DNA of 64,000 bases. Origin: Stylophora pistillata (taxonomy: Eukaryota). Of this stretch, positions 13,344-29,637 are shown in pieces. The stretch is from contig NW_019217970.1 of the NCBI RefSeq assembly GCF_002571385.2, forward strand, positions 440,383 to 504,382. The letters are read 5' to 3'. A program made the translations under genes and the position numbers. The notes beneath the pieces are model-generated. The model saw only the letters and a list, made by a program, of their open reading frames with translations. It was not told the DNA's origin and ran no database searches. Positions within the stretch are counted from its first letter, which is position 1. Each line of letters opens with the position of its first letter.

Positions 13344-13746
13344 ATGGCCTCGTCGGCGAGTCGCTGGAAAAAGTTGAGGAGGGCCAGTGGAATTGAAATC
13401 AGCTGCGAGAATCAGATAGATGGCGCGCTGAATCTTCACAGTTTGAACGAAATTGAACCAGAGTTATTCATCAAATTTATTCGAATTCCCTCGCTCAAAA
13501 CATACACAAGTTTGATGCGAAAACTTGAGAACTGCTCAAAGAAATGGCTAGCGGAATTTTTAGTGCTTGGAGGATTGACATCGCTCTTTGAAGTTCTTGA
13601 AAAATTAGGCGAGCGAGAAGTTGCAAAGTTCAGCGACGCTTTCTTGCAACTTGAATGTGTGCGGTGCATTAAAGCTGTGTTGAATAATACGACAGGACTG
13701 GAATTTATGACTTCAGATACCTCGTTAGCAAAACAACTTGTAAATG
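13344..13746 (+). CDS. INF2: INF2-like formin, variable first coding exon V1 (N-terminal helix plus DID/GBD first half)
   Basis: ATG at 13344. MASSASRWKKL..EPELFIKFIRIPSLKTY..W..FL..GGL..DAFLQLECVRCIKAVLNN..QLVN. 403 nt, ending in phase-1 donor G|GTGAGT. Confidence 0.88.
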
Positions 13747-16061
13747 GTGAGTAAATGTCAATTTTTTTGCCAGAGTAGGTGAATTTAACAGAAGAGAGAA
13801 AAAACGTTCACTTGGATTTAAATTTACTTTACATAGATGGATTGCGAAGTCTTCGGCAGAGCTTGAGGACGATGCTGCAGCACTTTGTAATTTTGCATTA
13901 CTCAATGCATAAAATACCACTTGCTGGTTTACTGCAATATTTTCCTGTTATTTTCTCAAAAGTTGAATCAGAAATTTATTTTAAATTACATGATGCGGGA
14001 ATTTCTCCGAGAAAAATATGTTTTCGTAAGACTGAAGGCATCGCTTTTTTGACCCCTTCTCTCCCAAGATCTCAGTAGCGATTCTCTTCTCTCTCTGCCA
14101 TACAATTCTTGTTATGTTAGTTTGGAGAATTCGGTATTGGATCAGTTGATAATTCCCTAATTGATGTTTTTCTTTATTCTCGTCACTTGTCTGCTTGAAA
14201 CTGTCTTGATATTGTGAGGAGGAATTCATTTTTGGTCATTCATGAGATAATGGTGTTAAGTATATCCCTTAAGGATGTGTTAGAAATTAGAAATGTGTCA
14301 GATGATCGCTGACAGAGATATTTCGCAAATGTTTCAGTTTGGACTTTTGCCCTAGGCCATTGTTGCCTCAAATCAGGATTTTCGTCCAGATGGAAAATAA
14401 AGGAGAATTTGTCTGCAGAAAAATTGCCTTTCTTAAGCTTGCGATTTTTCAATAAGGTGATCTTGTTGCCCTCGGTAAAACTTTTAAGAATCGAAGGATA
14501 TTTATCATAAAGTGGAGGACTGTTTTTTTTTTTATAATTAAGGCAAACTTGGCACATGTATATTCAGTAAACAACTTCAAGCCCTGAAAAGGTTCATGTA
14601 AAGCCCTGGCCAAATGTACTTAAAACATTTTTAGGCATGACACTTGAAATTTATATTCCTGATCATAATAAAATTTGAGGATTCGAATGGTTCGCTTCTA
14701 CGAATGGTTTCCTTCCCTTCGTCAGTATGACGTTATATAGATATGTACTTCTTGCACAATCAGTTAAAAACTTGAAAATTAAGGGCGTTTAAGGACCGAC
14801 AGTATATCATAATTTCAATCGTCTATTTCTAAACCTTCATGCAAACGCGCCACCCACAAATTACAGTCCCATAAATTGAATTAAAATCGAAACTACCCCT
14901 CGTTTGCATCATTTTACCTTGTTTGTGTGTACGCATAGTTTCTGATTTTGTCTAATTAAATTGTTACGTGGCTTCATAGGAAAATTCTGCTGCATGGCAT
15001 ATCGAGAAGTTCAAAAGCATTCAGAAAGGAAACTTCTGCTAGCTAGCAAACTGTATTACTGCAAGATAAGAAGTTAATCCGTTAATCAGCCAACAGTTTG
15101 GCTGACCTTTCGTAGAGGATCTAATGATAAACAGAATTCCTCAGTTCTCCGAAGAAGTTTTCGCAAAAAAAAAAAAAAGGAAAATGAATGAACGCGGTGA
15201 TTCAGAGAAGTGGTTCTAAACTTAGTCTGCAGATTTTCTACATAGGTCTCAGTGCTAACTTTAAAGGAGATTTTTTTTTTCTGAGACATTTGTTTTGACA
15301 AAACTAAAGATTTGAAAACAACAGTATATCACTTGTTCCCTTGTTTGAAAATAGGTCCTAAACGACAAAAATACAAAATTAGGCAAGCAATTGGTGATGA
15401 TTGTCTACGGAAGTGTTTCTTCTTTGCAGAAGACATATATAGACACTTCAAGGTTAAATATCTGATGAACAAGGTTATATTATATTTGAGCACGTATCAT
15501 TTCGAGCCGATATACTGCTGCGCTGAATGTATCACAATTTCTGATGTGTCTTTTCAAGGCCAGCCATATTTCCGTAATAGTTAGAGCAATTTTTTTCACT
15601 GCTCAACTAATCACAACAGAGCTCCCTTCAATTGGTTTAATTTGAGGTCGCCATGTCCCTTATTATGCGTGGCAAACACTTATCACTGATAAGATTTTAA
15701 AGCTGAAAAAATGTAACTATACTATAAGTGCTTTTAGATACTTCGATGACGTGGGAAACTCTGCGGTGTTTACGCAAGAGAGGTCACCACCTGTTGGTAG
15801 TTGCTTTCTTAGTTTTACAGGGAAATAAATAGCAATTAAGATGTGAAGAGGCGTATCAGATACGCATACATTGAATAAATTTAAAGTAGGCTATTTAATG
15901 AGCAATGATAAACCCCATGCGGTCATTAATGTATAACCGGCGCGATTAACACCCGTAGCACAGAGACTGCAAACAATTTTGGCAATACCCACCGTTTATT
16001 TGGAATGTACTGATTTAGAAAATACACACTCTTGCTGTTACTTTCTAAATCATCGATCGTC

Positions 16062-16464
16062 ATGTCGAAGAATTGGAAAAAACTTGCCCAGGCTGGCGGA
16101 GTGGACATTAAAGATAACGCTGAGGGCAAAGGCGACGAACCAGTCATCGATCTTCAAAAATTAAACGAAGTAGAACCTGAATTATTTATAAAATTTCTGC
16201 GAATTCCTACTCTAAAGACATATGCAAGTTTGATTCAAAAGCTTGAAAAGAGTTCCAAGAAGTGGATGACGGATTTTTTGGTGCAAGGAGGATTAACTAC
16301 GCTTTTTGAAGTTCTAGAAAAGCTTTGCGAGCGAGGTTTAGCGAAGTTTTCCGACGCGTTTCTGCAGCTCGAATGTGTCCGTTGCATCAAGGCAGTCTTG
16401 AATAATGTGACGGGTTTGGAATATATGACCACCGATCCTTCACTCACGAACCAGCTTGTAACTG
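16062..16464 (+). CDS. INF2: INF2-like formin, variable first coding exon V2
   Basis: ATG at 16062. MSKNWKKL..EPELFIKFLRIPTLKTY..DAFLQLECVRCIKAVLNN..QLVT. 403 nt, phase-1 donor G|GTAGGT. Confidence 0.88.
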
Positions 16465-27356: not shown

Positions 27357-27628
27357 TGCGCTCGACTCCGGATCGAGTGGTCCGGGTTCAAGCCCCGGCC
27401 GGGACATTGTGTTGTGTTCTTAGGCAAGACTCTTTACTCTCACAGTGCCTCTCTTCACCCAGGTGTTTAAATGGGTACCGGCAATTTAATGCTGGGGGTA
27501 GCCCTGCGATGGACTGGCATCCCATCCAGGGGGGAGTAGAAATACTCCTAGTCGCTTCATGCTACAGAAACCGGAGTTAAGCACCGGCCAAATGGGCTAC
27601 TAGGCTCGTAAACAGACTTTACCTTTAC
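27357..27628 (+). mobile_element. 5'-truncated tRNA-derived SINE with a 13-bp target-site duplication
   Basis: B-box-like GGTTCAAGCCC, body TTGTGTTCTTAGGCAAGAC..CACCCAGGTGTTTAAATGGGTACC and (ACCTTT)n tail. CTTCCCAAACCAT flanks both sides (27344-27356, 27629-27641). Decayed copies lie near 31090-31290, 31630-31880 and 62775-63090. Confidence 0.85.
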
Positions 27629-29240
27629 CTTCCCAAACCATAAAAAAATTTAGTAAGTAGACAACTTTTTAGGAAGCGATTCTTCTCAGCTCTAGTCCAC
27701 CGGGGTCGTAAACATTGATTACAAGGCGTTTGTTTTTAGAGTTTTGACTTTATTTAAAATGAAAACTTTTCTTACAAACGATTTTGTTTGGTAAACAAAC
27801 GAGGAGCTAAATATAACATTATAAGTTTGCTTATATCAATGAATGCTGAAGTTCTATTATCGGTTTACTTATGAATTAAACAGTTTCTCAGTCTGGGTAA
27901 AAAGTGAGCAATAATTATGTCTACGGCATGCGCCAGGCGTAAATTTTTGGAGATAGGCTAAGTTAACTTTTTTGTAGAAACCAAAATGATACTGGCTATC
28001 ACCGCTCTAAAACTTTCTGAAAAAAGAATCTTTTAGGAAACTCTTGCGATTGCTAATGCGCTAGAATGATAATTACAAATTTGAAAACTTGACAAAGTAG
28101 TTTTTGATTATAGTAAATAGCATTCAATTTCTCCATGAAGCGGTTTCAAGGAAACCAATGCCTAGTGGTTTCTTTTTCAACTAACTAACAAGCTACGATC
28201 TCCTTCGCTTTTCTGTTTTATCAAACTCAACTGCGGGATTTCCTCCGATGCGCGCGGAATTAAATAAAATCCCTTCCATAATATAGTAATCGGAAAGTAT
28301 CGAACGAGTTCCTTGTAATTCAAATGGGTAAAAAAGGACTGTAGAGTTTTAATTATATTTATTCATACCTAAGGCAGTCTGAATTCGTATTGGCTAAACT
28401 TGAAGGCTTTCTTAATTCTAAATACAATATTGTCTCCTCTCACCTGCACAATAGTGTTCAAAGTATTCATAATTTAGGGTTAGTTTCGAATAATAGCTCA
28501 CGTTCATGTTGTTTTGTACCCAAAATAGCTCAAAAGATGCACTTTGTAGTTTTATACTATTTATTGATGTAAAAAGACAACATTAGTTTATCTTCATTAT
28601 TGCAGCCGATATTTGCCTAACCAAAATGAGAAATTTCCCAAATAAAACGGTCCACCATCTTACTGGAATAATTCTTTCTCTTGTTTATATTCAAGTGATT
28701 CCATTGACACCGAATCAATACGACGAACTCTTCTGGCAGCCGCTCAAAGTGACTCATTTAGTATTCCATAGCAATTACAATTAAGGCCTTTTACTGAGAA
28801 AACAGTGTCGTGATGATTAAAAAACATAGAATACAGTGGCATTCATGAATGAATGTTTGCATAACTCGAAATACTATCTTGAAATGACGGTCACCTGCGC
28901 GATGTAGCGCATTCATTCTTTCTTGAAGGGAAGTAGAATGGTTTTCGCAAACTGTTTCTAGGCATGCGTGTTCTTCTATTTTTAATCTTTCGCCTAAACC
29001 TTTTTTATTTTTAAACGAGACAACATGGCTTGCCTCGAGAGTTTATTTGCATGTGGAGTAGTTGAGGAGGTTGTGTTTAAAACTGACCTGGCAGTTACGA
29101 TGGCCATTAGAATTCTCGGTGTTCCCAAATGCGGTTTTAGATGAGAAAACCGTCCAGTTTTATTGACCGCAAATGGATTGTTGATTTTTTTTGGTTGGTT
29201 AAAATGATTTCACGGCTTTGAGTACAAATTCTCCGTTATT

Positions 29241-29637
29241 ATGGCTACTGCGAGTGTTGCCAACAGATGGAGTGTAGTTCGGCAAAGATTTAACAATGCT
29301 ACAGATGGAAAGCAAGTCGAAAACGTTACCATCTCTTCAGATGTCTCTGCTGAACTTTGCGTTCGTCTACTTAGTTCTTCATGTCTTCAGAATTTCTCCG
29401 GGCTCAGGGCAAAGATTCAAACCAGTTCTGCTGGATGGATTGCAGGATTTCTCTCTCATGGTGGGCTGGAAGTCCTCTTTCAAGCTTTGAAAAGATTAAG
29501 CAAAGGCGGGAAAATGGCGTTGACGGAGGCGTTTATGCAACTTGAGTGCGTCAACTGCATCAAAGCTGTTATGAATTCGAAACAGGGACTTGATTCAATT
29601 ATCCGAAACAAGGCCTTGGTACGAAATCTTGCTAAAG
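29241..29637 (+). CDS. INF2: INF2-like formin, variable first coding exon V6 (closest to the constant region)
   Basis: ATG at 29241. MATASVANRWSVVRQRF..SAELCVRLL..QNFSGLRAKI..WIAGFLSHGGLEVLFQALKRLS..LECVNCIKAVMNSKQGLD..VRNLAK. 397 nt, phase-1 donor G|GTTGGC. Confidence 0.87.

What the first reader, a model, noticed from the sequence alone, without database searches (positions are those of the whole stretch)
13344..29290. The putative calmodulin-binding helix is diversified across the six variable exons
Seen: every V exon keeps a Trp near the N-terminus with a hydrophobic residue at position 4, but position 8 varies. V1 WKKLRRAS, V2 WKKLAQAG, V3 WQRLRKMP, V4 WWTLKRHV, V5 WRKISGDS, V6 WSVVRQRF. 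The linker from this helix to the PELC motif is not alignable between copies. Established: human INF2 binds Ca2+/calmodulin through W11-L14-L18 (KWAALKEKL, 1-4-8 spacing). Inference: V4 and V6 keep a full 1-4-8 anchor and the other four do not, so exon choice may tune or remove Ca2+-triggered actin assembly.
Basis: partly seen in the sequence, partly recalled or inferred. Interest (0 to 1): 0.72.

Follow-up and report, generated by a model that had tools for sequence, protein, structure and literature searches.

The report
Coral formin with six regulatory heads
This coral's gene for the actin-building protein INF2 carries six alternative front-end exons (one seen spliced in RNA, the others likely), and their calmodulin-contact helix differs in a way conserved across corals, which likely tunes rather than removes calcium control of actin assembly.

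Summary
The six motifs are there as written. They lie in six paralogous exons (V1-V6), each equal to the N-terminal ~130 aa of human INF2, in tandem before one set of constant exons. RNA contigs of two studies join V5 to the first constant exon; RefSeq models of Montipora join three V types to it. The helix pattern is fixed per exon class across corals: bulky position 8 in V4 (12 of 12 distinct helices) and V6 (25 of 25), but V1/2 1 of 53, V3 2 of 8, V5 0 of 12. 'Remove' is weakly supported: Trp and position 4 stay, V1/2 and V3 carry a bulky residue at position 10 instead, and the second, stronger calmodulin site of INF2 (I92/A95/L96/L99) is kept in all six. The linker is partly alignable: the register of the actin side-binding residues L30/D34 is kept in V1, V2, V3, V5 and lost in V4, V6, the mirror image of position 8, though this is one evolutionary split. 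No binding was tested. A known kind of gene layout (UGT1, protocadherin, plectin), not found in print for a formin.

The parts
13344..13746 (+). V1 coding part (ATG to phase-1 donor G|GTGAGT); helix WKKLRRASGI at 13365
   Evidence: (Drf_GBD)
16062..16464 (+). V2 coding part (donor G|GTAGGT); helix WKKLAQAGGV at 16074; recent sister of V1 (77% core identity)
18864..19266 (+). V3 coding part (donor G|GTAAGG); helix WQRLRKMPIF at 18879
21511..21886 (+). V4 coding part (donor G|GTTAGC, inferred); helix WWTLKRHV at 21538, full 1-4-8
24359..24743 (+). V5 coding part (donor G|GTAAGA); helix WRKISGDS at 24383, no bulky residue at 8 or 10; spliced to C1 in RNA contigs; contig runs collinear from 24155
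29241..29637 (+). V6 coding part (donor G|GTTGGC, inferred from Montipora models); helix WSVVRQRF at 29268, full 1-4-8; RNA contig collinear from 29073
31341..31456 (+). C1, first constant exon (phase 1 in, LDTNN...ENYK); single match in the genome
31935..32094 (+). C2 constant exon (DID)
   Evidence: read; tblastn
33511..33544 (+). C3 small constant exon
   Evidence: read against the Oculina model
34067..34205 (+). C4 constant exon
34552..36095 (+). large exon with end of FH3 region, FH1 polyproline and start of FH2 (end approximate; N gap 36106-36743 follows)
36878..40128 (+). FH2 exons and the exon holding [19 protein letters not shown] (about 39982-40038; WH2/DAD label recalled); boundaries approximate
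   Evidence: tblastn with Oculina INF2
43657..45411 (+). long C-terminal exon to the stop codon (start approximate)

Best explanation
This is one coral INF2 formin gene with six tandem alternative N-terminal exons before one set of constant exons, and exon choice likely sets how strongly and how long calcium-calmodulin activates the formin rather than switching calmodulin binding off. Shown: the six exons, their common splice phase, the single constant region, the V5-to-C1 splice, and class-fixed residues at the known contact positions. Inferred from human INF2: all six heads would still bind Ca2+/calmodulin, through the Trp/position-4 anchor (C-lobe) and the armadillo patch (N-lobe). V4 and V6 would have the human-like 1-4-8 helix but a shifted actin side-binding segment, hence strong activation with a weaker shut-off brake. 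V1, V2 and V3 would use a 1-4-10 helix and V5 a bare 1-4 helix with an invariant Ser at position 5, all with the actin side-binding register intact, hence a higher threshold or shorter pulses, V5 weakest. Each exon is likely driven by its own promoter.
For: Six Drf_GBD exons, all length mod 3 = 1 with GT donors; six matches with V3 and with V6 as query, one match for C1 in the genome. V5-C1 GT..AG joint in 2 of 4 runs, two studies; a contig of a third run enters C1 after 363 letters from outside the laid stretch. Montipora foliosa and M. capricornis RefSeq isoforms join V6-, V3- and V1/2-type heads to the same ALDTNN exon. Position 8 bulky: V4 12 of 12, V6 25 of 25, V1/2 1 of 53, V3 2 of 8, V5 0 of 12; position 10 bulky: V1/2 50 of 53, V3 7 of 8, V5 1 of 12, V4 0 of 12, V6 0 of 25. 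Armadillo site in 136 coral V sequences: I92 position bulky 136, A95 Ala 133, L96 bulky 133, L99 bulky 134. L30 position bulky and D34 position acidic: V1/2 65 of 65, V3 8 of 8, V5 12 of 12, V4 0 of 23, V6 0 of 28. Human numbering from PDB 9azp; roles of these residues.
Against: No binding or cell test. All function is carried over from mammalian INF2 at about 40% identity. The position-8 and L30/D34 patterns follow one split in the tree (V4+V6 against V1/2+V3+V5; ultrafast bootstrap 88 and 86, falling to 70 and 92 when the L30-P35 columns are left out), so they are one event, not many. The whole exon has diverged in the same class-fixed way (20 of 95 core columns fixed but different between classes), so the helix need not be the selected part. 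In V4/V6 a bulky residue sits one place further upstream and may still serve as L30. L18A suppressed pull-down of the isolated human peptide and W11D alone abolished activation in cells although 300 nM binding remained, so a weak helix could mean no activation. The polar contacts N49, R54, K55 vary between classes. Ala at position 8 in Trichoplax, Ptychodera, Ciona and Styela shows that position 8 is not universal. Joints of V1-V4 and V6 to C1 were not seen in this species.
Confidence: 0.5

Rival explanations
1. The heads are biochemically near-equivalent; the array is kept because each exon has its own promoter for a cell type or stage, and the helix differences are old, tolerated divergence.
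For: Trp, position 4, net positive charge (class means +2.3 to +3.7) and the armadillo patch are kept in all classes; Ala at position 8 occurs in named single INF2 proteins; one tree split explains the pattern; RNA contigs run collinear 204 and 168 nt above the V5 and V6 ATGs.
Against: Within each class the residues at 5, 8 and 10 are nearly fixed across many corals, which suggests selection on each helix type; V1/2- and V6-types are both present in Nematostella.
Confidence: 0.22
2. On/off switch, the strong form of the first reader's idea: only V4 and V6 are calcium-activated; V5 above all, and perhaps V1-V3, give calcium-insensitive formins.
For: L18A suppresses peptide pull-down; loss of the helix anchor alone abolishes activation in cells; V5 has no bulky residue at 8 (0 of 12) or 10 (1 of 12), Asp at 10 in 10 of 12 and Ser at 5 in 12 of 12.
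Against: Trp is kept in every class, which is hard to explain if the helix no longer binds; the L14L18A peptide still bound weakly by SPR; the armadillo site is intact; V1/2 and V3 have a bulky residue at 10.
Confidence: 0.16
3. The diversified target is not calmodulin but another function of the N-terminus: F-actin side binding, localisation, or phosphorylation of the helix.
For: Residues 23-49 bind the filament side and L30K abolishes it; the linker affects inhibition; this segment differs by class, including P35 to Ala in V6 (28 of 28) and C38 to Phe in V1/2; basic-basic-x-Ser motifs in V1 and V5; plectin isoform heads set localisation.
Against: Actin and calmodulin compete for overlapping surfaces, so this is not cleanly separable from the best explanation; kinase motifs are short and common.
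Confidence: 0.1
4. The V exons are separate short genes or dead duplicates, not alternative exons.
For: Some automatic models call them separate proteins (Oculina, Desmophyllum, Orbicella, Nematostella entries); V6-C1 joint not seen.
Against: V5-C1 joint in two studies; Montipora isoforms; intact frames and same-phase donors; single C1.
Confidence: 0.02

Closest known systems
Mammalian INF2 (inverted formin 2)
   Same: Best PDB matches are INF2 chains (9w3x, 9w46, 9azp, 9w4g; E 1e-36 to 5e-35). Short N-terminal extension with Trp anchor, DID, FH1, FH2. Mammalian hits run out of frame at the same point as the V exons, so the exon boundary looks shared.
   Different: Mammalian INF2 has one N-terminus and is described with two C-terminal splice forms. 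Here there are six heads, and no coral class combines the full 1-4-8 helix with the human L30/D34 register.
Variable-first-exon clusters (UGT1, clustered protocadherins, GCNT2; chelicerate sDscam)
   Same: Tandem paralogous variable exons, each encoding a whole N-terminal domain, spliced to common constant exons (PMC1885805; sDscam from the listing).
   Different: Those vary substrate or adhesion specificity in vertebrates or chelicerates; here the variable part is the regulatory head of a cytoskeletal enzyme in cnidarians. Separate promoters are not shown here.
Plectin 1a and its isoform-specific N-terminal tails
   Same: A cytoskeletal protein whose alternative N-terminus decides Ca2+/calmodulin binding and its effect on actin binding (PMC4353693).
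   Different: Plectin tails are described as diverse sequences ahead of a shared actin-binding domain, with calmodulin binding specific to 1a. Here the heads are paralogous, all keep the anchor, and the exon includes half of the folded DID.

Membership tests
INF2 formins | N-terminal DID most similar to INF2, preceded by a short extension | tested here: met
   Pfam Drf_GBD on all six; top four PDB hits are INF2, Diaphanous far weaker
INF2 formins | FH1 and FH2 domains downstream | tested here: met
   Drf_FH1; FH2 exons by tblastn with the Oculina model, which carries PF02181; part hidden by an N gap
INF2 formins | C-terminal WH2/DAD motif | tested here: inconclusive
   A motif shared with coral and arthropod models is present; its label is recalled, no profile was run
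INF2 1-4-8 calmodulin site | Trp at 1 and hydrophobic at 4, all six exons | tested here: met
   (108 of 110 distinct helices)
INF2 1-4-8 calmodulin site | Bulky hydrophobic at 8, V4 and V6 | tested here: met
   12 of 12 and 25 of 25
INF2 1-4-8 calmodulin site | Bulky hydrophobic at 8, V1, V2, V3, V5 | tested here: not met
   1 of 53, 2 of 8, 0 of 12; these are not filed as 1-4-8 sites
INF2 bipartite calmodulin site | Armadillo patch I92/A95/L96/L99 | tested here: met
   F-A-F-L, F-A-F-L, F-A-F-L, F-A-V-L, F-A-L-I, L-A-F-L in V1-V6 (residues)
INF2 bipartite calmodulin site | Ca2+-dependent binding and activation | not testable with these tools
   needs biochemistry
INF2 F-actin side-binding segment | Bulky residue at L30 and acid at D34 in the human register, V1, V2, V3, V5 | tested here: met
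   85 of 85 sequences of these classes
INF2 F-actin side-binding segment | Same register, V4 and V6 | tested here: not met
   0 of 51; Ser at the D34 position, bulky residue one place further up
Variable-first-exon clusters | Tandem paralogous variable exons and one set of constant exons | tested here: met
Variable-first-exon clusters | Each variable exon spliced directly to the first constant exon | tested here: inconclusive
   seen for V5; three types joined in Montipora models; V1-V4 not covered by the laid stretch, V6 joint not seen
Variable-first-exon clusters | Own promoter for each variable exon | tested here: inconclusive
   contigs collinear 204 nt (V5) and 168 nt (V6) above the ATG; contigs cannot show starts

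The most novel reading that the evidence does not exclude
Cnidarians split the calcium-control head of INF2 into two ancient exon families that share out the human functions: V4/V6 keep the 1-4-8 calmodulin trigger and lose the actin side-binding brake, while V1/2/3/5 keep the brake and remodel the trigger. Promoter choice would then give each cell type a formin with its own calcium threshold and pulse length, a natural set of separation-of-function alleles for the N-terminus that is mutated in human INF2 disease.
Probability: 0.25. Interest if true: 0.78.

Novelty: new variant of a known kind. Interest (0 to 1): 0.55.

Why it matters
How the INF2 N-terminus turns calcium into actin assembly is an active question: 2025-2026 preprints assign it two calmodulin sites and an actin side-binding brake. 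This gene offers six natural, long-conserved heads on one constant body, so their contributions can be compared by simple swaps. It also extends variable-first-exon clusters to a formin and to cnidarians, and shows that automatic annotation splits such exons into separate genes. The layout is a known kind and the functional differences are untested, which caps the score.

Tried and rejected
Complex prediction of calmodulin with V5 was not available, so there is no model of binding. AlphaFold models of the isolated exons were too poor to use: V5 mean pLDDT 39.9, V6 58.0 with 42-51 over the helix; no fold search was run on them. Hydrophobic moment does not separate the classes (0.18-0.38, mammal 0.27). 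RNA was laid only on 23400-31600, so V1-V4 have no RNA evidence here. Run X6 did not cover V5, V6 or C1 and the V6-C1 joint was not seen in 4 runs; contigs show presence only, so this is not counted as absence. No seventh V exon was found. Isoforms held for Branchiostoma, Patiria, Styela and Anneissia show no alternative paralogous head, but only one cluster each was read, so restriction to cnidarians is not established. A shared promoter word (ACCTG) is only a weak hint. Three look-ups of earlier scan findings returned nothing. Literature searches found no description of this array.
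Full report
Observation. The six octamers stand at the stated places on the + strand. Each lies near the start of an open frame of 125-134 codons that matches Pfam Drf_GBD. The six share 19 invariant columns and are 32-66% identical to V1. Each ends at a GT with the same phase (length mod 3 = 1): 13746, 16464, 19266, 21886, 24743, 29637. The V4 and V6 donors are GTTAG and GTTGG; read-through tails of relatives (RG-stop or RGN; KGW or QGW) fit the same donor position. 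The organism is a coral by the labels of the runs that hold the gene; the closest named protein to V2 is from Pocillopora meandrina (89%).

The gene. Downstream lies one set of exons for the rest of the DID, FH1, FH2 and a long tail. The genome gives six matches for V3, the same six for V6, and one for the first constant exon C1 (counts are lower bounds by the tool's own note). The best solved relatives are INF2 chains. RNA contigs laid on 23400-31600 show a GT..AG joint from V5 to C1 in 2 of 4 runs, from two studies; a contig of a third run enters C1 after 363 letters that lie outside the stretch, likely one of V1-V4; one contig begins at the C1 edge; contigs run collinear with the genome 204 nt above the V5 ATG and 168 nt above the V6 ATG. 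Three of the four runs are only guessed to be RNA; the one recorded as RNA did not cover these exons. RefSeq isoforms of two Montipora species join V6-, V3- and V1/2-type heads to the same constant exon. So alternative use is shown for V5 here and inferred for the rest.

Relatives and tree. I used the 8 hits with cluster members, the best 120 of 180 hits, and the first 71 of the 140 new ids. After a length filter and collapsing identical cores, 206 sequences remained, the six window exons included. A tree of 67 representatives on 101 core columns, without the helix, puts all V types in one clade (ultrafast bootstrap 98), split into V4+V6 (88) and V1/2+V3+V5 (86). Without the first six columns the values are 96, 70 and 92. 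Nematostella has a V6-type and a V1/2-type sequence, so the split predates the anemone-coral divergence (roughly 500 million years, recalled). Most deep members are unnamed, so their taxa are unknown. Hits with equal contig lengths suggest that other corals hold up to three V1/2-type exons on one contig (weak).

The helix. Sequences with at least 55% core identity to a window exon were classed (136); 4 lacked the Trp region and were dropped; 110 distinct helices remained. My script preferred a Trp with a hydrophobic residue three places on where two Trp were present. Position 4 is bulky in 108 of 110. Position 8 is bulky in V4 12 of 12, V6 25 of 25, V1/2 1 of 53 (Gly 32, Ala 13, Ser 5), V3 2 of 8 (Pro 6), V5 0 of 12. 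Position 10 is bulky in V1/2 50 of 53 and V3 7 of 8, V5 1 of 12, V4 and V6 none. V5 has Ser at 5 in 12 of 12. These counts are of related sequences, not independent events.

What is known of the human site. W11 is essential; L18A suppressed pull-down of the peptide; the L14L18A peptide kept reduced affinity by SPR (PMC9616786). A crystal structure shows two sites: the helix (W11, L14, L18) on the C-lobe, Kd 6.4 uM alone, and an armadillo patch (I92, A95, L96, L99) on the N-lobe, Kd 0.76 uM alone, 44 nM together (bioRxiv 10.64898/2026.01.27.701936). W11D or I92D each abolish activation in cells; residues 23-49 bind the side of F-actin, L30K abolishes this and prolongs the response, D34 contacts the D-loop (bioRxiv 10.64898/2026.08.14.744810). 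The linker also matters for inhibition (PMC12632326). All these positions lie inside the V exon (numbering from 9azp).

Mapping onto the coral heads. The armadillo patch is kept: of 136 sequences, position 92 is bulky in 136, 95 is Ala in 133, 96 bulky in 133, 99 bulky in 134. Loss of calmodulin binding is therefore unlikely for any head (inference). The polar contacts at 49, 54 and 55 vary. The L30/D34 register is kept in 85 of 85 V1/2, V3 and V5 sequences and in 0 of 51 V4 and V6 sequences, which have Ser at 34 and the bulky residue one place further up. This mirrors position 8. Against over-reading: it is one split in the tree; 20 of 95 core columns are fixed yet different between classes; among the 48 distinct helices outside the coral classes only 28 are bulky at 8, and Trichoplax, Ptychodera, Ciona and Styela have Ala there.

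Mechanism. Best reading (0.5): one formin body, six heads, all calmodulin-binding, with graded activation and shut-off; V5 weakest. The layout alone I put above 0.9. Rivals: equivalent heads kept for their promoters (0.22), on/off switch (0.16), a target other than calmodulin (0.1), separate genes (0.02).

Comparison and novelty. It is an INF2 by the tests run. It works like a variable-first-exon cluster (PMC1885805); separate promoters and five of six joints are untested here. Plectin 1a is the precedent for calmodulin binding set by an alternative N-terminus (PMC4353693). Seven searches of the held library found no account of this array; a formin phylogeny that includes Nematostella (PMC5047451) and an INF2 review (PMC11589041) showed none in the passages returned. 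RefSeq already lists three head types as unnamed isoforms. Subscription papers are not in the library.

What I saw of each paper. PMC9616786: part 2 of 8 and a term search. PMC12632326: abstract and section 13. bioRxiv 744810: abstract, Results parts 1-2 of 3, passages. bioRxiv 701936: parts 1-2 of 6. PMC1885805: abstract and Background. PMC4353693, PMC5047451, PMC11589041: passages. sDscam papers: search listing only. No supplements were read; the species alignments in the supplementary figures of the two preprints and of PMC9616786 could bear on how widely the sites are known to be conserved.

Verdict. Observation confirmed with two corrections; interpretation partly supported. Interest 0.55: a new variant of a known gene layout that makes a current question about INF2 control directly testable, with function wholly untested.

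Noticed in passing
window 22836-23344 (intron V4-V5): Palindromic element: 204-nt arms, 97% complementary, each holding a tRNA-Thr(AGT) gene (22916-22988 minus, 23145-23217 plus).
   Followed up: no
window 27357-27630, relatives at 31089 and 31624: Interspersed repeat with very high summed depth in all four runs (family D3/D4).
   Followed up: no
300 nt above each V ATG: ACCTG occurs above all six (nearest-group offsets -147, -273, -140/-114, -132/-37, -192, -155); TGACCTGGCAG is shared by V5 and V6. A word this rare is common to six random windows in 0.8% of draws, but word size and window were chosen after looking. The longest V5 and V6 contigs begin about 12 nt above it.
   Followed up: partly
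window 24383-24397 and 13365-13388: Basic-basic-x-Ser motifs in the V5 (RKIS) and V1 (RRAS) helices; Ser at position 5 is invariant in V5 relatives. Possible phosphorylation control.
   Followed up: partly
I92-1 position of each V exon: At the position of the human disease variant R91G the exons carry K, K, A, M, R, A.
   Followed up: no
window 2129-3353 +, 50099-51013 -, 57769-58083 +: Neighbours: Yip1-domain exons, a single long TLC-domain frame, an RFXAP-like exon (the first two below the Pfam cut-off).
   Followed up: no
window 36106-36743: Assembly gap of 638 N inside the FH2 region.
   Followed up: no
L007-L009 (G000 contig C77): Three near-identical calmodulin genes lie within about 20 kb.
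   Followed up: no
window 20777-21184: Direct repeat of 156 nt, 89% identical, spacing 252, upstream of V4.
   Followed up: no
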